64,000 bases of DNA. It comes from Neocallimastix sp. 'constans' (taxonomy: Eukaryota). Under the pieces are notes generated by a model. That model worked only from the letters and a program-made list of their open reading frames with translations. It was not told the DNA's origin and did not search any database. The position numbers and the translations under genes were made by a program. Of this stretch, positions 1-52,430 are shown in pieces. Position 1 is the first letter of the stretch. The number at the start of each line of letters is the position of its first letter. The stretch spans positions 1,302,001 through 1,366,000 of the forward strand of contig JBODTK010000010.1 in assembly GCA_050613775.1 (NCBI GenBank), read 5' to 3'.

Positions 1-303
1 TGTTAAGGTTTTAGAGAATTAAATAAAAATAAAGTAAAGAAACACAAATTTTATTTTTTTATTTATTATTTTTATTTATAAATTTATTTGATTTTATTTC
101 ATGATTTTTAAAAATTGGTAGCAAAATTTACAACTATTTATACTTTTTTCAAGGCATAAAAGTTGTTCTTGCCACTAAATTACATTTTATTTATATTTTT
201 TTTTTAAAAAAAACTATTAAATTTAAATTGAATTTTATAATTAGTTATATAAAATTTAATTATAACAATATAAATAAAATACATTTATAATATTAATAAA
301 ACA

Positions 304-335
<32 letters not shown>

Positions 336-819
336 CTAAAATATTACTAATAAGAATTTATTTAATTGGCTATAATTTATATTACAATCTGTTAAAATAT
401 TCAAATAAAAATAAAAATACTATTCTAATATAAAGGTTTTTAATAAAATAAAACATTTTTCAATATAAAATAAAACATTTCGATATAAAATTTTATAATA
501 AAAGTTAAAATATAATATATAAATTTTTAATTATCAATATATAAAAATATTATTAATACAAATTTTCCTTATTAATATAAAAATAAAAAAAAATAAGATT
601 TATTATTAATATTGCTAATATTAGTTTTAAATATATAAAAATATTACTATTAATATAAGATTTAATATAAAAATATAAAATTTAATATAATTTTTGATTT
701 AATTTTTGATCTTTGGATTTAAAAATTTATTAAAGTACAAAAATAATAATGTACACATAATGTATTAGAAATAAATCGTAGATTTAATTAAGAATGCACT
801 ATTTAGTACATTCTTATCA
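1..819. mobile_element. Probable solo LTR (K), outermost visible member of the locus-1 stack
   Basis: Begins tgttaag and ends cttatca (imperfect TG..CA inverted ends). Followed by the attt spacer once the 823-2326 insertion is removed. Left flank is outside the window. Confidence 0.5.
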
Positions 820-822
820 ATT

Positions 823-2326
823 TGTAAAGAATTAATTAAAAATATTTAATTATATTAATAATTAATTCTTTCTAAAATTAATAATAAAAAATATTATTAA
901 TTGAGATAAAATTAAAAAGTATAATATAAAAATTGAAAACGAAAATTTAAAAACTTAGAGTTTATTATAAGATTATAATAAACAACACTAAAAGTAGGTT
1001 AAGAGAATTTTAGAAATTATTTTATTATAAAAATTTTTTATTAGAAGTAATTTTAAAATATTTGTGTTAATTATTATAATTTCTTATAATAATAACTCTT
1101 GATTATTTTTAGAAGAATCAAGAGTCCTATTTATATTAATTTGATTTCTAATCTTGGAAAATTATCTCTATCTAGAAAAAGATTAGAAGAAAAAACTAGA
1201 TAGATCTCGATTGGTGTTTAATTACATCAATCTTTAGTTAATAAGAAAACCCGAATAAGGGAGAAAACTTATTAACTAATTATATATTAATTTTATTAAT
1301 ATTTAATCACAAGTAAAATTAAATAATTAATTCTTTTAATTATCTTAATTAAAAGTCCAAGAAATAATATAATTTAATTATTTCTTGATTAAATAGAATT
1401 ATCATTTTAATACAATTTAATTTTTCTTAATTAAATAGAATTTATCATTATTTTAATACAATAATACATTATTATAATTTAATATATTAATTATTGATAA
1501 TTTAATTTAATGTAAATAAATTTTAAAACAATAACATTAATTAATAATTACTATGTGACATAATTAATAAAATTATTCATAAAATTTTATAAAATAATAA
1601 ACTTTAAATATTAATTTTTTAATGTTAAGATAATAACTGAATTTCAATTCAATTTCAATTTCGATATTTCAGTTATTTGAATTTCAATATTAATAAATAA
1701 TAATAATATAATAATTATTATTAAATTAACTTTATTAAAATATTTAGGAATTAGTCTAGGCCAACTAATTACTAAATATTATTAACATATTGAATTTAAT
1801 ATATATTAAATAATGTAAACACGTGATTGTCATATTAAATTAATTTCTACATATTATATTTTAATTATAAATTATAATATTTAGCAATATTTCTTATATT
1901 TTATTTATATTAAATATTTATATTATTATCTTATTTTATATTATCAATATCAAACTTATATTAATACTATTACATATTCATATTAATAATTAATATTTTA
2001 ATAATTAATTATTTTATATAAATACATGTTTAAATCTTTTGATTAATCCTTTGTAGGATTATTGTAATTTAAATTATAGTAATAATTATATAAAATAATA
2101 ATGTAATAAAATATTATTAAGATTAAATAAAATTTATATTTTAAATAAAAAACTTAATTATAAAATTTACTAATAACAATATGTTTTAAATAAGAGTAAA
2201 ATTAAGTTATTAATTAATTACTATAATTTGGCATCTTGACCTAATCGTTAAGACCAAATTATCTAAAAACTTTGACATTTAATAAAGAATAATAATTATT
2301 TTGAAAAATAATTATAATTCTTTACA
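823..2326 (-). mobile_element. Solo LTR of family A (5-bp TSD), inverted relative to the other A copies, with a nested element
   Basis: Termini tgtaaagaatta...taattctttaca. TSD caatt at 818-822 and 2327-2331. About 1140-1205 is the reverse complement of the tatctagttttttcttctaatctttttctagata core at about 41210-41270. Confidence 0.8.
1623..2277. mobile_element. Solo LTR-like element nested in the family-A LTR
   Basis: Termini tgttaa...ttgaca. TSD tttaa at 1618-1622 and 2278-2282. Right end is homologous to the spacer foldback element at 56015-56236. Confidence 0.7.
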
Positions 2327-2332
2327 CAATTT

Positions 2333-2934
2333 TGGTACAGGACTTTTGAAATTGATGGATGTATAATAATATATTGGTAAATAGATAGTGGACGTATAAA
2401 AATTACGAAAAACTTATACAATATTTATTTATTTATTTATTGATTATTTATTAATTTATTTATTTAAAAATTTATTTAACTATATATTATTCATCCATTT
2501 ATTTATTTGTTCATTTATTTATTTATTCCTCCATTACATAAAAAAAAAGAAAAGAGAGAGATTTAAAATAATATTATTACAAAATATTTTATAAATTTTG
2601 GTAATACATTGATTAGTTAAAAATAATTTTGTGTAACAATAAAATAATAATAAAATTTTAGATATGAATATTAATAATAAAAATAATAAAAAATTTATAA
2701 TATAAAATAAAATTTATCAAATGTATAATAAAAATATAATAAGAATATAATAAAATATTTATTTTATAGCAAAATATTAATAATTAATAATATATATATT
2801 TATATAATAATAAAGGAAATATTGATAAAGTTAATAAAGATAATAATTAATTAATAAAATAGATTTAAAACATATTTATATGGAGAAATATTAAAATTAT
2901 TATAATTTAAGGTATTTGGGTAAATACCGTATCA
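2333..2934. mobile_element. Solo LTR (L), locus-1 stack
   Basis: Termini tggtaca...cgtatca, resembling the termini of the full-length gypsy LTRs. Flanked by attt on both sides. Confidence 0.75.
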
Positions 2935-2938
2935 ATTT

Positions 2939-3537
2939 TGATACAATATAAGTAATAAAGTATCAGATTTCTATTTATAACGAGGTCGAGCAAATAGGGA
3001 ATTTGTAAAATAATATATTCCAACTCAAAGATAATAAATAATAATTTACACAAATAATAAAATTTATTTATTTCTTTTTAAATCTTGTTTTTATTTATTT
3101 ATTTATTTTACATAAATTATTACAATTATATTTATATTCCTCTGAATATAATGATTTTTATCTATCTCTAATAATTCAATTTATATTAATATCTTAATAA
3201 TAATTTTACTTATAATTGTAGGATTCAACTCTTATCCTTTAACTATAAGTAATTACTTAATTATTTAAACTAAACTATAAGTTCTCTAAAACTATTATTT
3301 TACTCAATTAGAATTTTTTAAAACAACAAGAAAAACTCTCTCTTTAACTTTTATTTCATTCTCTTCTTTTAAATTTATTAATTAATTTTATCTTGAATAT
3401 TATTGGCTGTCTAATTAATTTTTAATCTATTTATATAATGATTTAGTATATTATATATTGTAATTATTTTTTCACTATATTATTATAGGATTTTCTCTTT
3501 GTTAATTTTCTTTCGTATTTCTAGCTGTATTGTATCA
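2939..3537. mobile_element. Solo LTR (M), 13 bp upstream of tRNA copy 1
   Basis: Inverted termini tgatacaata...tattgtatca. TSD attt at 2935-2938 and 3538-3541. Confidence 0.85.
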
Positions 3538-3550
3538 ATTTTTCCAAGCA

Positions 3551-3643
3551 GCTCGTGTAGCCTAGAGGTTTAAGGCGTCGTGCTTATAAGGGTGTACCTC
3601 TTATGCAACGCGAAGATCGCGAGTTCGACCCCCGCCATGAGCA
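3551..3643 (+). tRNA. tRNA-Ile(UAU) with 19-nt intron (3589-3607), copy 1; T-stem mismatch
   Basis: GCTCGTG...CATGAGCA acceptor stem. Anticodon arm TCGTG-CT-TAT-A/intron/A-CGCGA, with the intron at the canonical 37/38 position. TTCGA T-loop. Exons resemble the yeast tRNA-Ile(UAU) sequence as I recall it. A3622 breaks one T-stem pair (GCGAG vs CCCGC). Confidence 0.93.
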
Positions 3644-17629: not shown

Positions 17630-19104
17630 TGATACGGGCTGGGGTTGAAACACTAAGATATTCAAAACAAAAAAAAAATAAATATTAACACATAACTATA
17701 AAAATAAATTTGGAAACAAGAAAAAAATTAAATTTTAAAATATTCTTTATTTAAATTTAAAATTAAAATCATTTGTTCCCCGTATTAAAAAGAAAGAAAT
17801 TTATTCTTCTTTTTATACTTTTATTTTAATACATTTTATTTATTATTAATATATTCTTTATAAAAAAAAAAAACTATTATAACTATTTTATTTTAATTTT
17901 TAACTATTATTTTAAATTATTTTTTAAAAAAAAAAAAAATAACATTTATTAAATTAAAATATAAAAAATTAATTTGGAGCTTGTATCACGAAGGGCATTC
18001 CGGGCGGTAGCTTCTTCTTGATATTGTTATTCAGAGAGAGAATTATACAGAATTGATATTTTCTGTATTTTAGATCATTTTTATTATTGGAATTCTTCTG
18101 TATTTTAGTTCATTTTTATTTTAATAAAGATTTAATTTATTTTTAATTTTTGTTTTATTTTTAGTTTATTTCAAAGGTTTTAGAAAATATTATACAGAAA
18201 CTTATAATTCTGTATTTTACATCAAATATTTATTGAAATAGGTTTTTATTATTCTTAATATAAAAATAAGAATTAATAATGATTTAAATATTATATAATT
18301 TTTAATAAGAATATTTAGTAATAATTTTTATTATATTTAATATTAATAAAATATTTAATAATTATTTTTATTAGATTTGATATTAATAAAAGATTTTAAT
18401 AAGAATATTTAATAATAATTTTTATTATATTTAATATTAATAAAAGAATTTTATAAGAATATTTAATAATAATTTTTATTATAAAAGATTTTAATAAGAA
18501 TATAATTTTTATTATATTTGATATTAATAAAAGATTTTAATAAGAATATTTAATAATAATTTTTATTAGATTTGATATTAATAAAAGAATTTTATAAGAA
18601 TATTTAATAATAATTTTTATTATAAAAGATTTTAATAAGAATATTTAATAATAATTTTTATTATATTTAATATTAATAAAAGATTTTTATTAGAATATTT
18701 AATAATTTTTATTATATTTGATATTAATAAAAGAATTTTATAAGAATATTTAATAATAATTTTTATTAGAATATTTAATAATTTTTATTATATTTGATAT
18801 TAATAAAAGAATTTTATAAGAATATTTAATAATAATTTTTATTATAAAAGATTTTAATAAGAATATTTAATAATAATTTTTATTATATTTAATATTAATA
18901 AAAGAAATTTATAAGAATATTTAATAATAATTTTTATTATATTTAATATTAATAAAAGAAATTTATAAGAATATTTAATAATAATTTTTATTATATTTGA
19001 TATTAATAAAAGATTTTAATAAAAATATTTAATAATAATTTTATTTTATTATAATTAAGAGTATTTAATAGGAAATACAAGGTATTTAGTGACACCCCGT
19101 ATCA
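17630..19104. mobile_element. Solo LTR J1 with internal AT-rich minisatellite
   Basis: Termini tgatacggg...cccgtatca. TSD ttga at 17626-17629 and 19105-19108. Confidence 0.85.
18290..19050 (+). repeat. Variable ~36-54 bp minisatellite in LTR J (also about 19760-20580)
   Basis: Tandem aagaatatttaataataatttttattatatttgatattaataaaagattttaat units and shorter variants. Confidence 0.85.
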
Positions 19105-19108
19105 TTGA

Positions 19109-20633
19109 TGATACGGGCTGGGGTTGAAACACTAAGATATTCAAAACAAAAAAAAAATAAATATTAACACATAACTATAAAAATAAATTTGGAAACAAGA
19201 AAAAAAATTAAATTTTAAAATATTCTTTATTTAAATTTAAATTAAAATTATTTGTTCCCAGTATTAAAAAGAAAGAAATTTATTCTTCTTTTTATACTTT
19301 TATTTTAATACATTTTATTTATTATTAATATATTCTTTATAAAAAAAACTATTATAACTATTTTATTTTAATTTTTAACTATTATTTTAAATTATTTTTT
19401 TAAAAAAAAAAATAACATTTATTAAATTAAAATATAAAAAATTAATTTAGAGATTGTATCACGAAGGGCATTCCGGGCGGTAGCTTCTTCTTGATATTGT
19501 TTTTCAGAGAGAGAATTATACAGAATTGATATTTTCTGTATTTTAGATCATTTTTTTATTATTGAAATTCTGTATTTTAGTTCATTTTTATTTTAATAAA
19601 GATTTAATTTATTTTTAATTTTTGATTTATTTTTAGTTTATTTCAAAGGTTTAGAAAATATTATACTGAAACTTATAATTCTGTATTTTATATCAAATAT
19701 TTATTGAAATAGGTTTTTATTATTCTTAATATAAAAATAAGAATTAATAATGATTTAAATATTATATAATTTTTAATAAGAATATTTAATAATAATTTTT
19801 ATTATATTTAATATTAATAAAAGATTTTTATTAGAATATTTAATAATAATTTTTATTATATTTGATATTAATAAAAGATTTTAATAAGAATATTTAATAA
19901 TAATTTTTATTATATTTAATAAAAGAATTTTATAAGAATATTTAATAATAATTTTTATTATATTTGATATTAATAAAAGAATTTTATAAGAATATTTAAT
20001 AATAATTTTTATTATAAAAGATTTTAATAAGAATATTTAATAATAATTTTTATTATATTTAATATTAATAAAAGATTTTAATAAGAATATTTAATAATAA
20101 TTTTTATTATATTTGATATTAATAAAAGATTTTAATAAGAATATTTAATAATAATTTTTATTATATTTGATATTAATAAAAGATTTTAATAAGAATATTT
20201 AATAATAATTTTTATTATATTTAATAAAAGATTTTTATTAGAATATTTAATAATAATTTTTATTATATTTGATATTAATAAAAGAATTTTATAAGAATAT
20301 TTAATAATAATTTTTATTATAAAAGATTTTAATAAGAATATTTAATAATAATTTTTATTATATTTAATATTAATAAAAGATTTTAATAAGAATATTTAAT
20401 AATAATTTTTATTATATTTGATATTAATAAAAGATTTTAATAAGAATATTTAATAATAATTTTTATTATATTTGATATTAATAAAAGATTTTAATAAGAA
20501 TATTTAATAATAATTTTTATTATATTTAATATTAATAAAAGATTTTAATAAGAATATTTAATAATAATTTTATTTTATTATTATTAAGAGTATTTAATAG
20601 GAAATACAAGGTATTTAGTGACACCCCGTATTA
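19109..20633. mobile_element. Solo LTR J2, tandem copy of J1, 15 bp upstream of tRNA copy 2
   Basis: Highly similar to J1. Ends cccgtatta (terminal CA mutated). Flanked by ttga and ttca. Confidence 0.85.
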
Positions 20634-32705: not shown

Positions 32706-34318
32706 TTGATAATTTTATTGTTCTTTACTTTCAAAAAAAAAAATTTTAATGTAATGGAATCTTCGAATTAATGGTGTTGTGTTGTTGTGTGCTTTTGTTA
32801 TTATCAATTGGCAATGTGGTAGGAAACTTTTTCTGAGTTGATCGTAAGACGACTTTGATATAACTCAATTAAAATTTAAAAATAAAAATATTATTTGTAA
32901 TCAACTAAAAAAAAATAAAATATGATTTATTAGAACAAAAAAAAAAATTTTTATGGAATAATATACATATAAAAAGAGCATTTCCTGGAATTTTCCATAT
33001 CCAGTACTAAAAAGTAGGTATGTAGTGCTTGAATTACCACAGCTTGCCTATTACGGTGTCATGTAGTAATTAAACCAGACGCTTCTGCTTTCAAATAAAC
33101 AGAACGACCAGAGCTCAAGAATGACCTTTCAATTCTTGAGATAAATTAATCCGGAAACTACCTACTGTTGGAATTTTAGTACTAGGTATGCTTCTAAACC
33201 GTACTAAATCCCTTTTTATATGTTTCCAATAAATTTTATTTTATTAAAGCTTCACCGGTAATTGCTTACCTATCACTTTAATATTAAAAAAAAATTAACA
33301 AAAAAAATTGTTTTATTAGAAATATTACTATCCTATTATTGTTTACTTTATATTTATGATTATTAACTTCCCCGATATTTCCACCACTTTTTATGTTGAG
33401 GTTCGGGACAGAATAATAATAAATATAGAAATAAACACTAAAATAAAAAAAAATTAAAAATTAAAATATATCTTTTTTTTTAAAATATTTTATTTATTTA
33501 TTTAATAAGAATTATTCAATTAAAAACTAAAAATAAATTAATTTCTTTAATAAGATTATATTTTTTTCAGATTATTTTTCTAAAATACAATTTTCTCATC
33601 TATTTATATTTTTTTTATCGTTAGAAATGGTCAAGCCATTTCTTTAGAATATCTTAGAGTTACATGTTTGAATTGTATTTAAATTATAAATTCATAATCT
33701 ATTCTATTATAATAAATAATTATTACATATTATTAAATTCTAAACTATTTATTATTAATTGTAGTAATAATATATTTTAAAAATAATTTTATTACTTTTA
33801 CAGAACTATTAGTAATAGAGTATTATTTAATTTTATACTATTTTTAAATAAAAGTATTTTAGATTATTATCTATTATTAATCTTATTATAAATAGGGTGT
33901 ATTTTGGAAGGAAGTATTACTAATTTTAATGACAAGGATCATGGATTTAAGTAAAATATTTTTAAATCATTATTAATTATATTAATTTTTATTAATAATA
34001 AATAATCTGTATTAGTAATATTTGTAAAATAAAATTTTCTTTAATAATAAAATATTGATAGAATAAATCATATTAATAAAACTAGATATTGATAATAATA
34101 TTGATATTAATAATATAGTATTAATTTTAATAATAAAGTATTGATATTAATAAAGAATTTATATTAATAATAATAAATTTAATATTAGTAATAATTTGGC
34201 AGTAATAGAACATAAGAAAGTTCCCCAAGTAAGGAAATAAATAATTTAATTTTAGTGGTTAAGTTATTTTTATGAATAATAATAAAATTAACATTATTTG
34301 TTCATTCCTTAACAAGAT

Positions 34319-34812
34319 TGGTACGTGTTATTGTACCTTGGGCTTTTTTGACACTACTCTAGTTAAGATAAATTATTCTAAATTGAATAAACACAATAAT
34401 TAATAATTTTTATTTCTTCTTATTATTAAGATATTTTATTTATTCTTTTTTTTTTTTTTTTTTTTATTTTTATTAATATTCTTTTTTTATTTATTATATT
34501 ACTTAATTATACATTATTTTAATTACTACATTTTTATTATAATCTAACTAACTATATATTTTTATTTCTTATTATATCTCCATTCTACACTACATTTTTT
34601 TATATTTTTGTCCTATTTATATTTTTTTTTTCTTTCTTTTCTTTCTGATCTCTTCCCCCTTATAATTATTTTCTTATTTACATCTTTTTATATTCTTTTT
34701 TATCTAATTTAAGGTTACAATTGTTTATTTCTTAATATTTTAAATATTTAATCTTATAACTTTATTCTCAAATTTATTGCTTATTTCATAGTTATCAGGG
34801 CGTCCCGTACCA
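34319..34812. mobile_element. Solo LTR C
   Basis: Termini tggtacg...cgtacca. TSD agat at 34315-34318 and 34813-34816. Confidence 0.85.
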
Positions 34813-35414
34813 AGATTGGGACAACACAGGTAATTATTAAAATTTATTATAGTAATAATATATTCAATTATATTTATTTATCTTTATTAAATAATTTTTT
34901 ATTTTTGAAAGAGAGAGTTTTTAATTATTTTATTTTCATAATTTCTTAAATATTTAATATTCTATCAATTTGATTTGTTAGTATTAAAAATTTTAATTTA
35001 ATTGGTTTCGAATTTATATATAAAATTATTATAAATCATTAATATAAATTATTATAAAATTTTAATATAAATTATCACAAGATTTTAATATAAAACTATT
35101 ATAGAATATTAATATAAAACTATTATTAATATAAAACTATTATAAAATATTGATATAAAACTATTATAAAATATTAATGTAAAACTATTATAAAATATTA
35201 ATATAAAACTATTATAAAATATTGATATAAAACTATTATAAAATATTAATATAAAACTATTATAAAATATTGATATAAAACTATTATAAAATATTAATAT
35301 AAATTATTATAAAGTATTGTTAACAAATATTATAATCTTTTTTGTATATAATTGAATATTTAATTATTATTCATTTTTTTTTTATTGTCTCGTAACAAGA
35401 TGCCCACGCCGAAA

Positions 35415-38400
35415 TCAGACTTCGTCCCTTGAAGTCGGTAGTTCGCACAGCCTATATGGGATAACGTTCTTAAGATGCACATTCCTGTCCGCAATTTCAT
35501 TAGTGACAGGATCACAAACCGTGATAGTGTTAAATTGTTTTTTCACAATTTTCATAGGGCCAATGAAATAAGGATCAAGCTTTCTTCTGTTAATATACTT
35601 TATAAGTACAAGATCCCCTGGTTTATAGTCGGACTTAAGCCTTCTTATTTGTTTCCTGCGATCTTCCCAAATTTTGTTGGCTGTTTGAATGTTATTTATT
35701 GCTTCTTTTATCCAACGATGATGGCGAACAAATTTCCGAACCATGAATTCTTCGTCAGTTTCGCAATCTTCTTTTTGATCAATGTTAATGGTCAATTCGA
35801 ATGGTTGTAAATCTCTACGTCCATAGAGTAATTCAAAGCTAGAAAATTGAGTAGTTTCATTTTTACAAGTTCGCAAGGCCCATAAAGCGCTAGGAAGTAT
35901 TTCATCCCAATTTTGAATGTTCTTGTTGCATAGTAGCCTTAAATACTTTCCTATTTGTTTGTTACGATTTTCAACCATGCCATTAGATTCCGGATGATAC
36001 ACCGTAACAAATTGTACCAACACACCATACAAGTCAAGAAAAGCTTTTGTTTTGTCTGAACAAAACTGAGGACCGTTATCGGTGACAATAACCTCTGGAA
36101 TTCCGTGGCGTGCAAATACTTTCATTAGGAAACTAATGACGTCCTTAGATTCGATGGTAGAAAGTGGGTCGGCTTCAACCCATTTTGTCAGGTAGTCGAC
36201 CAATACTATAATATATTGGTTCCCTTTGTTAGTCTGAGGCAGCGGGCCTATGATATCAAGTCCTACTTTTGTGAAAGGTCTACCCGGTTTGGTTGGAATA
36301 TTTTCAACGTAAGCATTTTGTGGTTGTGGCTTGAATTTTTGACATCTATCACACGTATTGACAATATATTTAACGTCTAAGATCATGTTTATCCAAAAAT
36401 AGTCTCTTTTTAGGCGATTGTAAGTCTTAAACACACCTTCGTGACCAACTCTGTGTGCATCAAGTATTAGTTGTAGCTTTTGATTATCATTATTAATTAC
36501 CTTCCTATAAGTACCATTGTCTAAGTAATATTCTTCGTCATTTATTGTAATAAATTTGCTCTTGATAGGGTTCAGTAAGTTTCCTTCATCAGTAGAATTG
36601 ATCTCCGACAAGACAGTTGAAACTATTGGATTGGAAGATTTTAATCTCGAAAGCGCATCTGCAAGCACATTCTTCTTGCCAGGTTCATAGATTACTTCAA
36701 CCTTAAGCATTGAGAGTAGCAATACCCATCTGGTCTGCCTAGAGTTATTAGTTTCCTTGTTCTTAAATAAGCTTACTAACGGTTTATGGTCTGTGAACAA
36801 CAAGGTAGTATGTGGGTTTCCTCCGATATAGGATTTGAATTTCTTTACGCAGTACGCTGCTGCGGTTCCCTCAAGATCTGTGATTCCATAATTTTGTTCT
36901 GATGGCTTCAGAGATCTACTAATATAATGGATGGGTCGTTCCTTGCCAAATTCATCTTTTTGCAGTAACACTCCGCCAATGCCATCGAAAAATGCATCCG
37001 TACGGATTATAAATTGGTTCTTGAAGTCAGGCATCATTAATATGGGAGCCGTAATCATCCTGTACTTTAACTCTTCGAAACTATCATTTTCAGCTTTTCC
37101 CCACTTGAATTCAACGTTCTTCTTTAACAACTTAAATAAAGGTTTCGCAATTGTAGCAAAGTTAAGAATAAATTTACGATAATAGCCAATAGCACCGAGA
37201 AAAGATTGAAGTTGGGATGTGGTAGCTGGGGGCAACCATTGGGCTATAACCTTTACTTTATCTGATAATGGTGAAATGCCATCAGTTGAAACAGTGTGAC
37301 CCAACAGTTCAACTTTATCTTTGAAAAAATGGCATTTCTCTAAATTCAATTTGATACCGTTTTCCTTTAAGATGGTAAATACTTTCTCTAAATCTCTTAA
37401 GTGGTCTTCAATAGTTTCGGAAAATATAATTAAGTCATCTATATATACAAAAAGACATTGCCCGATTAAAGGGTAGAAGATTCGGTTCATTTCTCGTTGG
37501 AATGTTCCTGGGGCATTACATAACCCGAATGGCATTACGAGAAATTGGTAGTTCCCAAAAGCCGTGGTAAAGCTAGTTTTTGGAATATCTTTTGGGTTCA
37601 TTGGTATTTGATGGAACCCAGAAAATAGATCAATAGTAGTAAACACTTTAATTGTTCGTCCTATAAAGAAAAGAATGTCATCAATTAGAGGAATGGCATA
37701 AGCATCCTTTAGTGTAACGTTGTTCAACTTCCGGTAATCCACGCACATACGCCACTTACCATTCTTCTTAAGTACTAAAATGACTGGTGACGACCATGGT
37801 GAACTAGAGGGTTCAATTAATTTATTGTTAAGTAGTTTGGTAATTTCAGCCTTTAATGCCTCAGCTTGAGCTTTAGATAAACGGTAGGCTTTTTGTTTAA
37901 TTGGTAGAGTGTCTTTTTCTAATATTATTGAGTGTGGTAATAACTTTGATCCGCCTAATTCTTCTATATTTATGGCCAATACTTCCTTGTAGTCATTAAA
38001 AAGGCGTCCTAATTGTCTTCGAATTCCTCTAGGAACCTGTTCTAGAATATTTCCAAGTAGAGCTTCTTTCTCTTCGCTGACCAGCATGACTAATGATGAC
38101 TTGGCAGATTTTCCTTTTAGATTTCTCTTTTCACAAATGAAGCAATGAAGTATAGAATCCTTTGTTAAATCAATCTGATTATTTTTATCATGGATATCTT
38201 CCTCAAAGTCAGTTTGAACTTCTTCTTCACTAGGTTGATCTTCGTCTTCACTAGTTGGAACTTCTTCGTCTGCGGATAAAGGTGCTATTCTTGTCCAAGT
38301 TTCATCATCATTCATTTTACAAAGGTAGTTGTCATAAGGATTAATAAATAACTTGATTTCTTTAAGTGTTTTATAACCTACTAATACATCAAACAATCCT

Positions 38401-39296
38401 TGATTATCATCGATTACTCTGAATACGTCTGAAATTGTAAGATTACCAAAGGTTACCGTTAAAACGTACAATTCCGAAGACATTCTAGTCTTAGAAGTTA
38501 CTTGGATGATATTATTTGTGGTAAATCCAAAAGGTCTTATTCCCTTTAAATTTTTTAGAAAACTACGAGTTACGATATTGATACTTGCACACGTGTCGAG
38601 AAATGCAAAGCCCTTTACGCCATTGATTAGGCACTCTGTAGTAGCTATATCATCTTTGGAAATTGTTGTCAACATAATTTTTTCCATACCTTCTTCCTTA
38701 AATTCAATGTTTTTTAGTCTGAGAGCCTTATTCAACTGTGCCCTTAATTTCGGACAAATGTCCAATAATTGTCCAAAGGTGATATCAGCAACTTTGTGGT
38801 TGAGATCCTCTTTGATGTCGTAAGTTTTAATCCCTTGGGCCAATTCTATGTGCTTAACACCTCTTTTCTCAGTGTTAAAAGGTTTCGGTGTTTTGTTTAG
38901 TCTTTCGTCTAATAAAGTACTTGGTAATTTTGTAGTGCTAGTCTTAGATTTCTTATTGTTATCACTAAGTTCATGTGCTTGCTTCATTATTTCTTGCTGT
39001 TTTTGTTCTTTGGCTTTTATTTTACTATTTCTTATTGATGGCTGAGCTATAACTGAAACATCAATTTCATTTAATGCCTCAGTATTTGGTACAGGATTCT
39101 GAAACGACAGGGATGGTTCTGGGACTTGTTCGTGGTTTCTTGGTAATGGGATAGGGACTGGATTGTCTTTTAATGAAGTAATTTTTGTATATGGTTTATT
39201 TGGAGGTTTGTCGGATCTATTTCTTCTAACGGCGGTAGCAACTAGATCCTCGGTTTGTTTAGAGGAAGTTTTCCTTCTTCCTTCCATTAGTTTAAA
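35415..39296 (-). CDS. pol: Pol polyprotein of element D (PR-RT-RH-IN), -1 frame relative to gag
   Basis: FLDTCAS protease, YIDD RT, RTDA RNase H, HHCC and GLDIIGP..TDNG..E integrase, GPM(K) GPY/F-like motif, no chromodomain. Confidence 0.95.
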   Translation of the reverse strand, partial: FKLMEGRRKTSSKQTEDLVATAVRRNRSDKPPNKPYTKITSLKDNPVPIPLPRNHEQVPEPSLSFQNPVPNTEALNEIDVSVIAQPSIRNSKIKAKEQKQQEIMKQAHELSDNNKKSKTSTTKLPSTLLDERLNKTPKPFNTEKRGVKHIELAQGIKTYDIKEDLNHKVADITFGQLLDICPKLRAQLNKALRLKNIEFKEEGMEKIMLTTISKDDIATTECLINGVKGFAFLDTCASINIVTRSFLKNLKGIRPFGFTTNNIIQVTSKTRMSSELYVLTVTFGNLTISDVFRVIDDNQGLFDVLVGYKTLKEIKLFINPYDNYLCKMNDDETWTRIAPLSADEEVPTSEDEDQPSEEEVQTDFEEDIHDKNNQIDLTKDSILHCFICEKRNLKGKSAKSSLVMLVSEEKEALLGNILEQVPRGIRRQLGRLFNDYKEVLAINIEELGGSKLLPHSIILEKDTLPIKQKAYRLSKAQAEALKAEITKLLNNKLIEPSSSPWSSPVILVLKKNGKWRMCVDYRKLNNVTLKDAYAIPLIDDILFFIGRTIKVFTTIDLFSGFHQIPMNPKDIPKTSFTTAFGNYQFLVMPFGLCNAPGTFQREMNRIFYPLIGQCLFVYIDDLIIFSETIEDHLRDLEKVFTILKENGIKLNLEKCHFFKDKVELLGHTVSTDGISPLSDKVKVIAQWLPPATTSQLQSFLGAIGYYRKFILNFATIAKPLFKLLKKNVEFKWGKAENDSFEELKYRMITAPILMMPDFKNQFIIRTDAFFDGIGGVLLQKDEFGKERPIHYISRSLKPSEQNYGITDLEGTAAAYCVKKFKSYIGGNPHTTLLFTDHKPLVSLFKNKETNNSRQTRWVLLLSMLKVEVIYEPGKKNVLADALSRLKSSNPIVSTVLSEINSTDEGNLLNPIKSKFITINDEEYYLDNGTYRKVINNDNQKLQLILDAHRVGHEGVFKTYNRLKRDYFWINMILDVKYIVNTCDRCQKFKPQPQNAYVENIPTKPGRPFTKVGLDIIGPLPQTNKGNQYIIVLVDYLTKWVEADPLSTIESKDVISFLMKVFARHGIPEVIVTDNGPQFCSDKTKAFLDLYGVLVQFVTVYHPESNGMVENRNKQIGKYLRLLCNKNIQNWDEILPSALWALRTCKNETTQFSSFELLYGRRDLQPFELTINIDQKEDCETDEEFMVRKFVRHHRWIKEAINNIQTANKIWEDRRKQIRRLKSDYKPGDLVLIKYINRRKLDPYFIGPMKIVKKQFNTITVCDPVTNEIADRNVHLKNVIPYRLCELPTSRDEV

Positions 39297-40108
39297 GATC
39301 TTCTATTTTCTTCTAACTTTCCGGATTCCTCCATCTCAGCAAGTTCCTTATAAGAGTAAGGGCATGACTTCATTACATGACCTAATTGATAGCATTTGTA
39401 GCATCTAATTTCTTTGTTTTTATTAACTTTCTTGCTTTCAGTTTTTCCTGTTCTGTTTGATTGAATGCTCTTAACATCGTTCCTTCTTGACAAGTAATTA
39501 CTTCTAAATAAACTAAATGGATGTTGGTGACTTCCTTTGTTAGCAGGATAAATGGTGGTGAAAACTTTATCACTAAAGAAATTTTTAGCGTTTGTCTCAG
39601 CTTTCTCGGCCAATTCAGCTTCCTCAAAGGCTTCTTCTAAGTCAACTTATTGGTTGGTAATCACTTGTGCCCTCGCGTATGGTCTATACGAAATAGATTC
39701 AGCGTAATCATCTACGGTAATGAATTCTTGGTATAACCTTGGCAGATTGTTGTATAACTTCTTGTACCTCCAGTTGAAGTTCTTAATAGTCTCGTTCTTT
39801 TTTATCTTTAGTTTTTGCAATCTTTTGCATTTCAACTGTGGGGTCACTTCTAATGCATCTTCCAGAGCCTTTTTCATTTGTTTAACATTAGGATAAACTT
39901 CTTCACCATCTTCGTTAATAGTAACCAAGTATTGAAGGACACCTCATAGCTTCCCTTCTACACACTCCATAGCCCAAATATGTATTGAAGATGGAGTGTT
40001 AATATCTGCTAACTTCATAAGTCTAACGAATTCTTCCGACCAAGTGTCAACATCTTTGCCAGATTCATCTAGTCTAGGTAAAAGATCTTCTAATTCCAAT
40101 ATTTTCAT
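39287..40108 (-). pseudogene. gag: Gag of element D with a frameshift (about 39940) and an in-frame stop (39647-39649)
   Basis: ORF fragments contain LKIKKNETIKNFNWRY and CYKCYQLGHVMKSC. ATG at 40108. Confidence 0.85.
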
Positions 40109-40818
40109 TAATAACTTTATGTTTATTACTAATTAAATAGTATTATTATTATTACTTAATATATATTTTTCTGTTTATATTTTTTTTTGTTCTATTATTC
40201 ATCCATCAATCTTTGAAAATTTCTAATTTTATAATCTTTTCATATTATTACTATTTTGGGTCCTGCATAGCTCGCCAGATTTTGGGACAACACAGGTAAT
40301 TATTAAAATTTATTATAGTAATAATATATTCGATTATATATATTTATCTTTATTAAATAATTTTTTATTTTTGAAAGAGAGAGTTTTTAATTATTTTATT
40401 TTCATAATTTCTTAAATATTTAATATTCTATCAATTTGATTTGTTAGTATTAAAAATTTTAATTTAATTGGTTTCGAATTTATATATAAAATTATTATAA
40501 ATCATTAATATAAATTATTATAAAATTTTAATATAAATTATCACAAGATTTTAATATAAAACTATTATAGAATATTAATATAAAACTATTATTAATATAA
40601 AACTATTATAAAATATTGATATAAAACTATTATAAAATATTAATGTAAAACTATTATAAAATATTAATATAAAACTATTATAAAATATTGATATAAAACT
40701 ATTATAAAATATTAATATAAATTATTATAAAGTATTGTTAACAAATATTATAATCTTTTTTGTATATAATTGAATATTTAATTATTATTCATTTTTTTTT
40801 TATTGTCTCGTAACAAAA

Positions 40819-41615
40819 TGTAAGAAACTATAATTATTTGTTAAATAATTATAATTTCTTTATTTGATTATTTATCTATTACATAATTTATACATTCATT
40901 CATTAAATTAGTAATTATTTATCAAGTTAACATGTATTTGTACATTTAATTATAGTTTTAATTTAATTAAAAAATTTTTTCTTTAAATTTATTTAGTATA
41001 CATTTATTTTATTTAATTTATTTAATTAATTATAATTTTTATTAATTTTTATAGTAATAAATTAATTATTTAATTATTATTTTTAATTAAAATTTGAATT
41101 AACGGACTTTAAAGTTTTTTTATTTTCTTATTAAAATATAAATCAATTTTATCGGACTTAAGGTTTTTTCTAATTTATTATAATAATAAATTGGTTTTTC
41201 CTTAAAGAACTTATCTAGTTTTTTCTTCTAATCTTTTTCTAGATAAGATAATTGTTAAGATTAGAAAACCTTTTAAATTATTATTTTATATAAAATTTAT
41301 AAAATTTTATTATTTAATTTTTCGTATAAATAGCTATTGATTTCTCTAAATTTTTGAGAAATCAAGAGTTATTATTATATAACAAATATTAATAAATATA
41401 TAATAATAATTAATAAAATCTACAAACATTTTCAATAAGTGTTCTTTTATTTTGTGTTGTTTATTATATTTGTTTATAATAGACTCTTCTCTGTCAAGAT
41501 AAGTTAAAATTTTCTTTATTTTTTCTAATTGTTTTCTTATTTTCTCAACTTGATGTTAGTATCAGGTTGTAGTTAATAATTTTGTTATAATAAATATTAT
41601 AATGAAATTATTACA
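40819..41615 (+). mobile_element. Solo LTR family A, divergent subfamily (A2)
   Basis: Termini tgtaag...ttaca. TSD caaaa at 40814-40818 and 41616-41620. Shares blocks such as gagaaatcaagagttattattata with A1 and A3. Confidence 0.88.
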
Positions 41616-41621
41616 CAAAAT

Positions 41622-42083
41622 TGATACGATATTTTATTTATGTATCTAAATTAATATTTATTTATGGGCAATGACAATAAGGAATTATGACAAAATAATA
41701 TATTCTAATATTAATTAGAAATAACACATACAATAATACAAAATAAAGTAATAAATATATCTTTTTAATGTTCTCTTTATTTATTATTAATTATTAATTA
41801 TTACATAAATTATTATTATTACTCTCTTATATAAATATTATAATTAATTATCTCAAATATATATAATATCTCTTTTTAACTATACTAAAATAAAATATAA
41901 AATAGCTATTTATATGAATTAATTTATCATAAGTATAAACTTATAAATAAAAGAATTCTCCGTTTAATAATTATTATTCTAAAATTATATATATTATTAT
42001 AAAATTATTGACCAATAATATTTAAGTATTTCTTTAACCTAAAGAATCTACCTAAATACCATTTTTATAGTGGTCACGTATCA
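41622..42083. mobile_element. Solo LTR E
   Basis: Termini tgatacg...cgtatca. aaat on both sides (41618-41621 and 42084-42087). Confidence 0.85.
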
Positions 42084-42835
42084 AAATTGACAAACGATTC
42101 TATTATCTTAATTTGAAGTTATTACTTCAAAAGTGATAATAGATGTATCAAGTTTGAATTAATATAAATTTAATATGAATGAATTTATGTTATTATTATT
42201 AATAATTAAGTTATTATTATTCTAGCTTAACACTGAATTGTTATTAATTTTTCAAAATTATACATTTCTTTTGTGTTTAGAATTAATTTTTATTATTATA
42301 TTTATTAATTTTTATTATTATTTATTAATTTTTATTATTATTTATTATTATAATATTTGGTTATTATTTTTTTTATTACATTTCTAATAACAACGAGAAA
42401 TTAATTTTATAAAATATTTACAAGTATTTATATTTTTACAATAATTTAAAGTATTTACAATTTTTAATAATAAAATAATTAAGAATAATTATATTTATAA
42501 AAATAAACAATAAAATAAACAAATAAACAATTAATACAAGAATTATTATAAACAAAGAATTCAAAATAATAAAAAAAAAGAGAAAATTGTTTACAAACTA
42601 TTTACTTTTAATTAAAAAGAGAAATTAATTAACATTAGTATTTCATTATTTTAAAAATTAAAATAGAATTAAAGTATAATTTCGAGTTTTAGAATTTAAT
42701 TAAAATAAATCTTTTTATTATGATTTTAATTTCAAATTTTAATTTATTAATTTGTTGTTGAATAGGTTAGATATTATTCAAGCTTTCTAATAATTTTATG
42801 CTTAAGAATTCCAATCTGTATCAATTCGTCGGCCC

Positions 42836-45800
42836 TTAAGAGATGACTTCGTCCCTTGAAGTCAAAGAATTTTCTTGAAGTACATATGGAAAAACATTTT
42901 TAATATGAACATTTCTATTTAAGAGTTTTCCAGTAGTTGGATCTTCTAATACTAAGGTATTGAATTTTTGTTTATTAACAACTTTAAAAGGTCCGTAAAA
43001 GTAAGGATTTAATTTACTTCTTCCTATAAGTCTTATCATTACGTAATCTCCTGGTTTATATTTCTTCTTTAGTGCATTTTGAAATCCAATACGGTGTTCC
43101 CAATATTTATTTGCATATTCTGAATATTCAGTAGCCTGTTTTACCCAATTTTGATGTCTTAAGAAACGTCGAAATATATATTCTTCTTCTGATTCATTTG
43201 GATCTTTATAAATATCGGGGAACATGACTTCTAATGGCCAAGTGTCGTGTCTGCCATAAAGTAATTCGAAACTACTAAATTTTGTTTTTGAATTTTTAGT
43301 AGTTCTTAAGGCCCATAAAGCCGATGGAAGATATTCATCCCATTCAGACTCATTTTCTACTAATAATCTTAATAACTTCCCTATTTCTCTGTTTCGATTC
43401 TCAATCATTCCATTCGATTCAGGATGATGCGGGGAAACGTAATGAACCCATGAACCATAAAGGTCAATCATCATCTTTGTTACTTCAGAGATAAAGGAAC
43501 TACCATTGTCGGTAATTATTATTTCAGGTGGTCCATGTCTTGTAAATATTTCAACAAGAAATTTTATTACTTCTTCGGATTTCATGTTCGGGATTGCTTT
43601 AGCTTCAACCCACTTGGTAAAATAATCGACTAAGGTTATTATATAATTGTTACCATTTTTAGTAGTTGGTAACGGTCCTATTATATCGAGTCCTACTCTA
43701 GTAAATGGTTGTTCAACAGGGGTAGCATTATCTCCAGAACTTTTTGGAAATGGTTTAGGCCTGCATGTTTGACATTTGTGACAACTTTTTATCCACATTC
43801 TTACATCATTCCAAATGCCAGGCCAATAGTAAGATTGCATAATTCTATTAGTAGTTTTCTCTGCTCCTTCATGTCCTACTAAATGGGCACGATTAATAAT
43901 ATCCTTTTTGTCTTCATCTTTATAGATAACTTTTAAATAAAGATCATCTTTTTTATAATATAGAGTATTATCAACAACTTGATAATTCTTAGTGAAGTAT
44001 TTTATTATACCTTCTGGTAGATCCAAATCCCTTGGATTAAAGTCGGCTAATATTGCATTAGCGCATTGAATAATTCCTTTTGAATTTTTAGAAGGTAATC
44101 TTGATAACGCATCAGCGAATACATTTTTCTTTCCTTTCTCGTAAATAAGTTCAATCTTATATTTGTTAAATTCTTCTATCCATCTTGCATGACGATTAGA
44201 AGTAGGAATGCTTTTTTTGAAAAACCCAAGTAATGGTTTATGATCCGTAATAAATTTTGTTAAATTTTTATTGCTTAATATATATTGACTAAAATATTTT
44301 AAACTAAATATAACAGCTAATCCTTCTAAGTCCGTTACGGAGTAATTCTTTTCAGATGTAGAGAGTGTTCTACTTACGCAACAGATAGGATGTTCAAGAC
44401 TATCCTCTTCCTTCTGTAAAAGAACACCACCAATACCTTTAAGAGAAGCATCAGTACGAATGATGAATTCCTTTTTAAAATCTGGGTAACTTAATATTGG
44501 ATCATTAAGTAAACATTCTTTAATATTTTCGAAAGCTTCTTCGCATTCATTTGACCATATATATTTTGAATTCTTTTTTAATAACTTAAAAAGAGGGTCA
44601 GCAATAATTGAGAAATTTTGAATAAATTTTCTATAATAACTAGCTAAACCTAAAAAAGAACGAAGTTCACTTACATCTTTAGGATTGTCCCACAAAGCAA
44701 TACTTTGTACTTTTGATGGAATTGTTTTTAATCCTTTTGATGTTAGAACATGACCTAATACTTCAACACTTTCTTGAAAGAATTTACATTTTTGTAAGTT
44801 AAGAGAAAGATTGTATTTAGAAAATATTTCAAAAGCTAACTTTAAATGTTTAAGATGTTCATCAAGAGTTCTTGAATAAATTACAATATCATCTAAGTAA
44901 ACAAATAAACATTTACCGATTAAAGGAAGTAATATTCTATTCATCTCCCGTTGGAAGGTAGCGGGAGCATTGGTAAGGCCAAATGGCATTACTTTAAAAT
45001 TGTAATTGCCGAATTTTGTGGTAAATGCTGTTTTCTCTATATCTTCTGGATTCATTGGAATTTGATGATATCCAGAATATAAGTCTAATGCGGAGAATAC
45101 CGTCGCACCATTTACTGAATAAATTAGTTCATCTATAAATGGTAGTGCGTAAGAATCTTTTATAGTAATTTCATTTAATTTGCGATAATCAATACACATT
45201 CTCCATTTCCCATTTTTCTTTTGAACTAATAGAACAGGAAAAGACCATGGAGAATGTGAAGGAACTATAAGTCCTTTTTCTAATAGTTTAATTATTTCCG
45301 ATTTAAGAATATCTGCATGCTCTTTTGATAATTTGTATGGTTTTAATTTTATAGGTTTATTACTAATTGTCACAATTGAATGTGGTTCTAAATTAGCTGT
45401 ACTTAATTGTGACATTGAAGTTGCCATACAGTTTTTATACTTCTCAATTAAATTTTTAAATTCTGTCTTAAATTTTTCCGGGACAGATTCAATAATTTTA
45501 TTTAATGTATCGATGAACTCTTGTTGTTCATCTTTTTCTATAATAATGGAATTAACAAGAGGTATTTCTAATTTACTATTAATTATATAGGTTACTTGTT
45601 TAATTCCTTTCTTAATTTTCTGGTAGACAGCATCATCATCTGGATCTATATACAAACGATACTTTTTCTGAATTCCTCTACCAAATATAATTTCAAAATA
45701 TGGATTCGTATAATTAATTACATAGAATTTTTCTGTAATAGTTAATCTATTATTTACGTTTATTTTTAATTCAATGTAACTATTTGTAGTTACTTTAGTA

Positions 45801-46606
45801 CCATCCACAATGGTAATATCTTCTAAATTTTCACATTGTTTAATTACTTTATGTTTTAGTTTGCCTAGACAATTATTTGTTATAACATTAACGTTTGCAC
45901 CGGTATCGTATAAGATTTTAAATGTCTTATTATCTATTTCACCACAAATAATAGGAAGACTTGTATTAGTTAAGGAACAAAGAATTTTCTCAACTCTTGG
46001 TTTACAACCTTGTTCAAGTTCTTTTCTAATGGACGGACTTGCAGATAATAATTGAGATAAACTAATTTTTGGAAAAAGGTTATTAGCTTCTTCAGTTATA
46101 CTAAACTTTTCATTTTCATTTAACATTTGGATATTGGTCATTTTTCTTTTCTTAATAGTTTTTGGTTTTTCTGATTCTTTTTCATTATTACTTTCAATAT
46201 ATGAGGCTCCATTAATCTCATTTTCATTGCTATTTTCTTCTTCATTAACTTCCATCACTATATCATCACTAGTATTTGGTTCATTTTCTTCAGAATTGCT
46301 AAGCTTTCTTCTTCTAGCATCTTTAATTACTTTCTTTTGTTGTTTTACTAATTTTGTTTTGGGTTCACTTAATAATGAAGGCTTTACTATAGATTTGTTA
46401 TTTAATTTTCTTGTCGAAGTTTTTCTCTTTTGTACTGTACCGATAAAGTTTGAAGAATTTCTTTCAATATTACTTTCTTCTTTAGTGAAATTTTCTTTGT
46501 CATTTTCACTTCTTTCGAAATTATTTTCATTTTCATTTTCATTTTCATTTTCATTTGCAATTTTAATTGTCCTGGGAGATTGCGTACTCCCGATTATTAA
46601 TTTAAA
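42836..46606 (-). CDS. pol: Pol polyprotein of element F, expressed by -1 frameshift
   Basis: Frame is open from the TTTAAAT site (46606) through LYDTGA, YLDD, RTDAS, HHCC/DDE integrase and GPF to TSRDEVIS*. Confidence 0.95.
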   Translation of the reverse strand, partial: FKLIIGSTQSPRTIKIANENENENENENNFERSENDKENFTKEESNIERNSSNFIGTVQKRKTSTRKLNNKSIVKPSLLSEPKTKLVKQQKKVIKDARRRKLSNSEENEPNTSDDIVMEVNEEENSNENEINGASYIESNNEKESEKPKTIKKRKMTNIQMLNENEKFSITEEANNLFPKISLSQLLSASPSIRKELEQGCKPRVEKILCSLTNTSLPIICGEIDNKTFKILYDTGANVNVITNNCLGKLKHKVIKQCENLEDITIVDGTKVTTNSYIELKINVNNRLTITEKFYVINYTNPYFEIIFGRGIQKKYRLYIDPDDDAVYQKIKKGIKQVTYIINSKLEIPLVNSIIIEKDEQQEFIDTLNKIIESVPEKFKTEFKNLIEKYKNCMATSMSQLSTANLEPHSIVTISNKPIKLKPYKLSKEHADILKSEIIKLLEKGLIVPSHSPWSFPVLLVQKKNGKWRMCIDYRKLNEITIKDSYALPFIDELIYSVNGATVFSALDLYSGYHQIPMNPEDIEKTAFTTKFGNYNFKVMPFGLTNAPATFQREMNRILLPLIGKCLFVYLDDIVIYSRTLDEHLKHLKLAFEIFSKYNLSLNLQKCKFFQESVEVLGHVLTSKGLKTIPSKVQSIALWDNPKDVSELRSFLGLASYYRKFIQNFSIIADPLFKLLKKNSKYIWSNECEEAFENIKECLLNDPILSYPDFKKEFIIRTDASLKGIGGVLLQKEEDSLEHPICCVSRTLSTSEKNYSVTDLEGLAVIFSLKYFSQYILSNKNLTKFITDHKPLLGFFKKSIPTSNRHARWIEEFNKYKIELIYEKGKKNVFADALSRLPSKNSKGIIQCANAILADFNPRDLDLPEGIIKYFTKNYQVVDNTLYYKKDDLYLKVIYKDEDKKDIINRAHLVGHEGAEKTTNRIMQSYYWPGIWNDVRMWIKSCHKCQTCRPKPFPKSSGDNATPVEQPFTRVGLDIIGPLPTTKNGNNYIITLVDYFTKWVEAKAIPNMKSEEVIKFLVEIFTRHGPPEIIITDNGSSFISEVTKMMIDLYGSWVHYVSPHHPESNGMIENRNREIGKLLRLLVENESEWDEYLPSALWALRTTKNSKTKFSSFELLYGRHDTWPLEVMFPDIYKDPNESEEEYIFRRFLRHQNWVKQATEYSEYANKYWEHRIGFQNALKKKYKPGDYVMIRLIGRSKLNPYFYGPFKVVNKQKFNTLVLEDPTTGKLLNRNVHIKNVFPYVLQENSLTSRDEVIS

Positions 46607-47565: not shown

Positions 47566-47690
47566 TATTATTATTATTTTATTTATAAATTTTAAAAAGA
47601 AACCTTACAATTTATATTTTCGCTTATCTTAATTTATGAATTTATGAATTATTTTACTTATTTCTTTTTTATTTATTCTTGCAAAAAGAA

Positions 47691-47725
<35 letters not shown>

Positions 47726-48095: not shown

Positions 48096-48146
<51 letters not shown>

Positions 48147-50613: not shown

Positions 50614-52430
<1,817 letters not shown>

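What the first reader, a model, noticed from the sequence alone, without database searches (positions are those of the whole stretch)
1..3643. Independent solo-LTR stack upstream of tRNA copy 1 with its own TSD (attt)
Seen: K, (caatt), inverted A, attt, L, attt, M, attt, ttccaagca, tRNA, with the last TSD at -13..-10. The LTR sequences and the 4-bp spacer differ from locus 3, but position and architecture are the same. Inference: targeting is set by distance from the tRNA rather than by target sequence. Every member has collapsed to a solo LTR.
Basis: partly seen in the sequence, partly recalled or inferred. Interest (0 to 1): 0.8.

Follow-up and report, generated by a model that had tools for sequence, protein, structure and literature searches.

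The report
Stacked retrotransposon ends before fungal tRNA
Four leftover end-pieces of different jumping genes sit back to back just in front of a tRNA gene of an anaerobic gut fungus, likely because each new copy was aimed at the same spot near the tRNA start and later collapsed, a habit known from yeasts and social amoebae but not found described for these fungi.

Summary
The stack is real, with one correction. K (1-819), an inverted A-family unit (823-2326), L (2333-2934) and M (2939-3537) abut, and ATTT lies at -13..-10 of an intron-containing tRNA-Ile(TAT). L and M carry the 4-bp ATTT duplication; A carries a 5-bp CAATT on both sides. In public runs, deep contigs break exactly at the ends of M and the right end of L. 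Elsewhere L abuts a polypurine tract and integrase end, so it is a Ty3/gypsy LTR pointing away from the tRNA. An empty tRNA site also exists. The host is a Neocallimastix. The two other tRNA copies carry stacks at -15 and -14. Best reading: Ty3-like targeting of the Pol III start, each insertion pushing older ones upstream, then collapse to solo LTRs. 'Distance, not sequence' is only partly supported, because all three targets are copies of one tRNA with a near-identical spacer; other tRNAs, the parent of M, and copies of K were not tested. This is a known kind (Ty3, Tj1, DGLT-A). Nine literature searches found no report for anaerobic fungi. This scan has noted similar targeting on other DNA (a budding yeast, another early-diverging fungus).

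The parts
1..819 (.). K: likely solo LTR, oldest visible member; left flank outside the window
   Evidence: TG..CA, 8/12 inverted ends; start motif shared with the C-family LTR ends at 30664, 33394, 34314; whole-length similarity to C not significant; not tested with reads
818..822 (+). left copy of 5-bp TSD CAATT of unit A (includes the terminal CA of K)
823..2326 (-). A-family unit, inverted relative to the A copies at locus 3; likely solo LTR with 5-bp TSD (strand is relative to those copies; its transcriptional sense is unknown)
   Evidence: 12/12 inverted ends; 956-1257 matches 48963-49842 reversed at 92.8 bits against a null mean of 19
2327..2332 (+). right copy of CAATT (2327-2331) overlapping the ATTT (2329-2332) that is the left TSD of L
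2333..2934 (-). L: solo LTR of a Ty3/gypsy element, pointing away from the tRNA
   Evidence: deep contig ends exactly at 2934; loose end = PPT plus integrase C-terminus RDEV-stop in X1, X5, X9; left 10 nt equal the reverse of the PBS-side LTR end of related element L020
2935..2938 (+). ATTT, TSD shared by L and M
2939..3537 (.). M: young high-copy solo LTR, likely the last insertion; probably minus strand
   Evidence: 11/12 inverted ends; 592-nt contig 2939-3530 at depth 1926 in X1, 80-nt contig ending at 3537 in X5; weak start-anchored likeness to unit E 41622-42083 (33.9 bits, null max 21-31.6)
3538..3541 (+). ATTT, target site at -13..-10 of the mature tRNA
3542..3550 (+). conserved spacer TTCCAAGCA before the tRNA
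   Evidence: same or near-same before all three tRNA copies and at 29789-29797
3551..3643 (+). tRNA gene, read as Ile (anticodon TAT at 3585-3587) with a short intron; one T-stem mismatch against copies 2 and 3; T5 run follows
   Evidence: isotype is my reading of the Rfam alignment (ARAGORN left it undetermined)
17630..20633 (.). locus 2 stack: two tandem 1.5-kb solo LTRs, TSD TTGA/TTGA/TTCA at -15..-12 of tRNA 20649-20741
33394..54922 (-). locus 3 stack: C, N3, D, A, E, F, A, G with spacer AGAT then AAAT at -14..-11 of tRNA 54937-55029; D and F are full Ty3/gypsy elements (pol 35415-39287, 42836-46258)

Best explanation
The region is a row of four abutting TG..CA units ending 13 bases before a tRNA gene, likely left by Ty3/gypsy retrotransposons that each inserted at the tRNA's transcription start and then lost their interior by recombination between their two LTRs. 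Shown: unit borders, the 4-bp and 5-bp duplications, the match of the ends of M and of L's right end to deep contigs, and a gypsy parent for L. Inferred: the integrase is tethered by the Pol III initiation complex (TFIIIB/TFIIIC), which binds through the tRNA's internal promoter and so survives each insertion. Each new element then lands between the previous one and the tRNA and re-duplicates the same bases, giving the order K, A, L, M from oldest to youngest. Two cutting geometries use the same landmark: a 4-bp stagger (L, M and the coding clade) and a 5-bp stagger shifted 2 bases upstream at its left end (A family).
For: Junction table and chance test (0 of 2000); contigs start or stop exactly at 2934, 2939 and 3537; M depth 1926 against 35-76 for low-depth contigs in X1, and 648 against 13-32 in X5. 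A loose end behind 2934 in 3 of 4 runs reads, reversed, as RDEV-stop plus a purine tract, as in the window's coding elements D, F, G, H. A loose end before 3545 in X1 is an empty tRNA site matching the flank at 29760-29797 and 57220-57249. All 3 tRNA copies in the window have an LTR end at -13, -15 or -14, with different TSDs. The first insertion at locus 2 had no LTR upstream of it. The 5-bp A site sits at the same offset from the 4-bp site 3 of 3 times (-15..-11 here, -16..-12 twice at locus 3). LTR pairs at locus 3 fit the predicted age order, weakly: G 0 and F 0 substitutions, D 2. Position matches DGLT-A (18 of 20 at 13-18 bp, PMC6101501 passages) and Ty3 (about 15 bp upstream of the mature tRNA, PMC5006619 passages).
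Against: Only one tRNA isotype was seen, three paralogues with almost the same spacer, so position and sequence are confounded. No genome was held, so no genome-wide test. M is 3.2 times deeper than the tRNA-Ile core contig in both X1 and X5 while only 1 of 3 tRNA copies here carries M. Most M copies are therefore probably elsewhere, and whether at other Pol III genes is unknown (contig depth is not a copy number). No parent was seen for M, K or A. About 1 kb of A (1260-2216) matches nothing, and its right end with L's start resembles the spacer DNA between tRNA copies. One X1 loose end shows an A-like start 4 rather than 3 bases after an L-like end. X17 holds an M-like contig at depth 13.5 with no tRNA or L cover. 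No protein interaction was tested.
Confidence: 0.74

Rival explanations
1. The integrases recognise the DNA sequence of this tRNA-Ile gene or its conserved spacer, not the Pol III machinery.
For: All three targets are copies of one gene differing at 2 of 93 positions with spacer TT(T)CCAAGCA or a close variant; no other tRNA type was seen next to these LTRs.
Against: The cut position and TSD differ between the paralogues (-13, -14, -15). The locus-3 site changed from AGAT to AAAT and was still used. Pol proteins only 43-60% identical use it. M appears to outnumber this tRNA about threefold in depth.
Confidence: 0.11
2. After a first insertion, later elements home on the CA end of the previous LTR (self-targeting), and the tRNA only marks where stacks were seeded or tolerated.
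For: The register is constant within a locus but differs between loci. Every later site directly follows a CA, and the A-family TSD includes that CA.
Against: First insertions without an upstream LTR (17630; also 57250, whose tRNA is outside the window) still fall in the conserved pre-tRNA flank. Every LTR has a CA end, yet inner LTR ends of D, F and G were not hit. After A inserted, L did not cut directly after A's own end but 2 bases further, in the old register (a duplicated CA lies there too, so this is not decisive).
Confidence: 0.11
3. The pattern is chance in AT-rich DNA, an assembly artefact, or random insertion filtered by selection.
For: The region is 11-19% GC. K and most of A have no strong homologue in the window. 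No single contig spans the junctions.
Against: Chain test 0 of 2000. Contig breaks at the exact borders in independent runs. The same layout occurs at 3 of 3 tRNA copies. Random insertion would not reuse one 4-bp site.
Confidence: 0.04

Closest known systems
Ty3 and its sigma solo LTRs (Saccharomyces cerevisiae; Ty3/gypsy, Metaviridae)
   Same: PR-RT-RH-IN order, GPY/F-type integrase end without chromodomain, insertion about 10-15 bp before the mature tRNA, solo LTRs left behind. Best PDB match of pol D (7q5b, E 3e-107), though PDB holds few such elements.
   Different: 4-bp TSD for the main clade (Ty3's 5 bp is recalled). All orientable coding-clade members point away from the tRNA, whereas Ty3 inserts both ways (PMC5911963 passages). 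Many divergent families reuse one site. Nearest look-alikes of the integrase in the ESM Atlas are mostly animal and Mucoromycota clusters. Kinship with Ty3 was not tested in a tree.
DGLT-A (Dictyostelium discoideum and relatives)
   Same: Ty3/gypsy LTR element 13-18 bp upstream of tRNA genes, no chromodomain (PMC6101501, PMC5006619 passages).
   Different: DGLT-A has one gag-pol ORF and both orientations; element F here has a separate upstream ORF (46597-47565, no Pfam match). Different host kingdom. Multi-family stacks at one base-pair register were not seen in the passages read.
Tj1 (Schizosaccharomyces japonicus); also Tca8/beta, Ylt1, Tyl3, Tyl6
   Same: Gypsy elements at Pol III starts; Tj1 has a fixed orientation (PMC4600332 passages).
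   Different: Tj1 points the same way as the target gene, has a 5-bp TSD and self-primes. The elements here point away and have TGG-starting tRNA-type primer sites. All of these hosts are ascomycetes.

Membership tests
Solo LTRs of Ty3/gypsy (Metaviridae) elements | TG..CA ends with short inverted repeats | tested here: met
   K 8/12, A 12/12, L 8/12, M 11/12; known LTRs D, F, G score 8, 6, 9
Solo LTRs of Ty3/gypsy (Metaviridae) elements | 4-6 bp TSD on both sides | tested here: met
   L and M ATTT, A CAATT; K's left side is outside the window
Solo LTRs of Ty3/gypsy (Metaviridae) elements | same sequence occurs as the LTR of a coding element (PPT/PBS and pol next to it) | tested here: inconclusive
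   met for L (loose end = PPT plus integrase end); not seen for M (125 loose ends not shown), K or A
Solo LTRs of Ty3/gypsy (Metaviridae) elements | multiple copies with the same termini | tested here: met
   M and right end of L by contig depth and breaks; A by three window copies; K untested
Ty3/gypsy (Metaviridae), coding relatives D, F, H | pol order PR-RT-RH-IN, PBS and PPT | tested here: met
   Pfam (protease hit for D only); PBS for C, D, F, G and PPT for D, F, G, H
Chromoviruses (Skipper, Tcn1-like) | chromodomain after the integrase | tested here: not met
   no Chromo hit at E <= 0.001 in the 3 gypsy pol ORFs; protein D ends about 45 aa after the GPY/F-like motif
Pol III-targeted LTR elements (Ty3, Tj1, DGLT-A type) | insertion in a narrow window at the tRNA transcription start | tested here: met
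   3 of 3 tRNA copies, -13, -15, -14; one isotype only
Pol III-targeted LTR elements (Ty3, Tj1, DGLT-A type) | targets many unrelated Pol III genes genome-wide | not testable with these tools
   no genome held; collection scans gave no tRNA-bearing relative
Pol III-targeted LTR elements (Ty3, Tj1, DGLT-A type) | integrase or RNase H binds TFIIIB/TFIIIC | not tested
   no interaction call was made
Ty3 lineage proper | RT groups with Ty3 in a tree | not tested
   the tree held no Ty3, Tj1 or DGLT-A sequence

The most novel reading that the evidence does not exclude
A Ty3/gypsy radiation of anaerobic gut fungi invented Pol III-start targeting on its own and has kept it since its root. Dozens of families, with a fixed away-from-tRNA orientation and two cutting geometries (4 and 5 bp), queue at the same base pair, so that each tRNA gene carries a dated ledger of insertions up to 25 kb long. 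Much of the DNA between tRNA genes would be decayed older stacks, and targeting would here inflate a large genome rather than protect a compact one.
Probability: 0.35. Interest if true: 0.7.

Novelty: new variant of a known kind. Interest (0 to 1): 0.5.

Why it matters
It would extend precise tRNA-start targeting from ascomycete yeasts and dictyostelids to Neocallimastigomycota. The usual explanation, a safe haven in compact genomes (PMC5006619 abstract), would not fit a host whose genomes are large and repeat-rich (recalled). Because each insertion lands between the last one and the tRNA, stack order gives the relative ages of families without a clock, which can be checked against LTR divergence. 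Element F (identical LTRs, open pol) is a candidate active, site-specific integrator for fungi that lacked gene-insertion protocols as of PMC5796279 (start of abstract, search listing).

Tried and rejected
No whole genome was held. A degenerate L/M end motif in metagenome contigs gave 17 matches; 0 of 17 had a tRNA or extended likeness to L or M, so all were chance. The tRNA 5' pattern found nothing in viral contigs or genome contigs. Pol as query: none in viral contigs with one protein, one distant with an alignment, 79 loci in genome contigs. Of these 80 loci one had an ARAGORN call, a doubtful tRNA with a 208-nt intron in the distant L089; none matched K, A, L or M, and one (L020) matched F weakly. 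Searching five MAGs that hold mis-binned fungal contigs gave only short AT-rich noise for L+M and 0 of 5 for the tRNA. Reads were laid only on 2860-3700, on 4 of 24 listed runs, so K, A and most of L have no read evidence. Plain BLAST and equal-weight alignment were swamped by AT content and were replaced by composition-weighted scores. L against N3, H, F and M against G were not significant or marginal. Rejected: a shared ATTT TSD for A (gives imperfect ends; the 5-bp parse gives 12/12). Rejected: tandem arrays from multimeric cDNA or unequal exchange (the units are different families separated by TSDs). A as a DNA transposon or MITE was considered and is not excluded, but its TG..CA ends, 5-bp TSD and three relatives inside the locus-3 stack favour an LTR. 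PMC10627285 (passages) was irrelevant to targeting.

Full report
Setting. The window is very AT-rich and holds three near-identical 93-nt tRNA genes at 3551, 20649 and 54937. Rfam scores copy 1 at 49.5 bits, and the alignment reads as tRNA-Ile(TAT) with a short intron (the isotype is my reading). The host gene at 10624-15051 is identical over the region searched to a protein its source names Neocallimastix, with further hits in Anaeromyces, Piromyces and Orpinomyces/Pecoramyces, so the host is an anaerobic gut fungus. No whole genome was held.

Observation. The borders are K 1-819, A 823-2326, L 2333-2934, M 2939-3537, then ATTT (-13..-10), TTCCAAGCA and the tRNA. L and M are flanked by ATTT on both sides. 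A is the only TG..CA pair in 1-3560 with 12 of 12 inverted terminal bases, and under that parse it has CAATT on both sides, so it has a 5-bp TSD of its own. It is the reverse of the A family at locus 3: 956-1257 aligns at 81.6-92.8 bits against shuffle means near 20, and both complete A copies there also have 5-bp TSDs (CAAAA). K begins at base 1 with a motif that marks unit ends in 4 of its 5 window matches, but its whole-length likeness to the C LTR is not significant and its left flank is missing. In 2000 simulations none produced the observed two-unit chain and 27 produced one unit. The region has no ATG-started ORF of 50 aa or more and none of the primer-site or integrase-end motifs of the coding elements.

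Outside evidence. Twenty of 24 listed runs hold part of 1-6000. Contigs of four runs were laid on 2860-3700. In X1 one 592-nt contig covers 2939-3530, starting at the first base of M, at depth 1926, with 1 substitution and 3 gaps. A 71-nt contig identical to the right end of L stops at 2934 at depth 1872. Low-depth contigs are 35-76. In X5 an 80-nt contig stops at 3537 (depth 555). Contigs that break at exact termini are what a dispersed repeat gives, although the tool warns that depth is not copy number. In X1, X5 and X9 (3 of 4) a loose end follows 2934 whose reverse reads as the integrase C-terminus RDEV-stop and a purine tract. The same motif sits inside the left LTR of D, F, G and H in the window. 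L is therefore the LTR of a gypsy element of that clade and points away from the tRNA. L's left 10 bases also equal the reverse of the PBS-side LTR end of a related element from another sample (L020). A loose end before 3545 in X1 is an LTR-free flank matching 29760-29797 and 57220-57249, that is, an empty tRNA site.

The other tRNA copies. Locus 2 has two tandem 1.5-kb LTRs with TTGA at -15..-12. Locus 3 has eight units from 33394 to 54922, separated by AGAT and then AAAT at -14..-11, including full elements D and F with RT-RH-IN pol. The first base after the last LTR is -13, -15 and -14 at the three loci. The 5-bp A site is offset from the 4-bp site by the same amount 3 of 3 times. C, D, F, G and L (and H, whose tRNA would lie beyond the window) all point away from the tRNA; A occurs both ways. 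LTR pairs differ by 0 (G, nearest), 0 (F) and 2 (D) substitutions, in the order expected if the newest is nearest, with little power. L, M and the locus-2 LTRs share GTATTT-N11-GTAT(C/T)A at the right end, which accounts for all 4 window matches.

The clade. Pol D, F and H are 43-60% identical. In a quick IQ-TREE of 120 of 122 RT-RH rows (2 dropped for length), 112 rows form one branch (SH-aLRT 99) apart from plant and arachnid rows. F lies on one side of its deepest split and D and H on the other, and Pecoramyces proteins fall inside it. The rows were chosen by likeness to F, most are unnamed, long branches meet at the base, and no Ty3, Tj1 or DGLT-A sequence was available. The tree thus suggests that targeting is old in this clade but says nothing about an origin separate from Ty3. 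No chromodomain was found.

Mechanism. tRNA promoters are internal, so an insertion at the start site leaves TFIIIC/TFIIIB binding intact and the same spot is offered again (established for Ty3; PMC5911963, part 1 and passages). Each insertion duplicates the same bases and pushes older units upstream; LTR-LTR recombination then leaves one LTR between TSDs. This accounts for the junctions in order: K with ATTT, A with CAATT at -15..-11, L and M with ATTT at -13..-10. Borders, TSDs, copy status of M and L and the parent of L are shown. Tethering to the Pol III complex, the time order and the collapse are inferred. The main gap is that all targets are paralogues of one gene with the same spacer. 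M is 3.2 times deeper than the tRNA-Ile core contig in both X1 (1926/610) and X5 (648/204), which hints that most M copies sit elsewhere, at other Pol III genes if the model is right.

Literature. Read as passages: PMC5911963 (also part 1 of 10), PMC5006619, PMC6101501, PMC4600332, PMC7175516, PMC10627285; no supplements were opened. They list Pol III-start targeting by gypsy elements in Saccharomyces, Yarrowia, Candida, Schizosaccharomyces and dictyostelids, and PMC5911963 expects it to be common in fungi. Nine searches, judged from listings, showed no report for anaerobic fungi or of multi-family stacks reusing one TSD; subscription journals and Repbase entries are not covered. This scan noted two stacked solo LTRs at a yeast tRNA-Ala (e1-9514968), a tRNA-targeting clade in another early-diverging fungus (e1-9986045) and LINE stacks before tRNAs (e1-9705041); I did not check these.

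Verdict. Real, and best read as a new host lineage and a more extreme form of a known strategy. It works like Ty3 and DGLT-A; membership of either lineage is untested. Interest 0.5.

Noticed in passing
window 2163-2527 vs 56123-56512 and 28541-28863: The end of A, the ATTT and the start of L are collinear at 62% (65 bits, null max 25-28) with the spacer DNA between tRNA copies, which keeps a CA-4 bp-TGATACA junction at 56287-56292 and 28653-28658: probably a decayed older stack.
   Followed up: partly
window 29787-29798: An intact pre-tRNA spacer TTTTCCAAGCA is followed directly by an A-family copy (98% like 48963-49842) with no tRNA; that copy lacks its last bases and runs into element C. Unexplained: insertion at +1 or a rearrangement.
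   Followed up: no
window 34315-34816 vs 40816-54926: The locus-3 spacer changes from AGAT to AAAT across element D, which dates a point mutation of the target site within the stack.
   Followed up: partly
window 35418, 42845, 50549, 57975: A DNA motif coding for the integrase end (RDEV) is kept just inside the 3' LTR of D, F, H and also of G, which has no pol: likely a cis signal. 22 of 120 related pols end in this motif.
   Followed up: partly
window 49849-54922: Element G has identical 679-bp LTRs, a zinc-knuckle ORF and no pol: a young non-autonomous member nearest tRNA 3.
   Followed up: partly
window 22082-28537: Copia element with LTRs differing by no substitution, inserted 1.3 kb downstream of tRNA 2 and splitting the spacer; not part of the targeted stacks.
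   Followed up: no
window 2217-2260, 21939-21982, 28541-28580, 56033-56075, 56175-56214: A near-palindromic motif of about 35 bp recurs in A and twice in each spacer copy.
   Followed up: partly
window 57250-63590: Element H starts in the conserved pre-tRNA flank, implying a fourth tRNA beyond the window; it has a broken pol and runs into a copy of spacer DNA at 63590.
   Followed up: no
window 3622: tRNA copy 1 has G>A in the T stem relative to copies 2 and 3 (a mismatch pair in the Rfam alignment); the B-box core is intact.
   Followed up: partly
window 16380-17340: Text resembling a decayed integrase on the minus strand upstream of locus 2 (seen by eye, not searched).
   Followed up: no
L019-L026: AT-rich contigs encoding close relatives of these fungal pols sit in bacterial and archaeal MAGs from gut samples, most likely mis-binned fungal repeats.
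   Followed up: partly
window 10624-15051: Host subtilisin-like (S8) gene with a ricin-type lectin domain lies between tRNA loci 1 and 2.
   Followed up: partly
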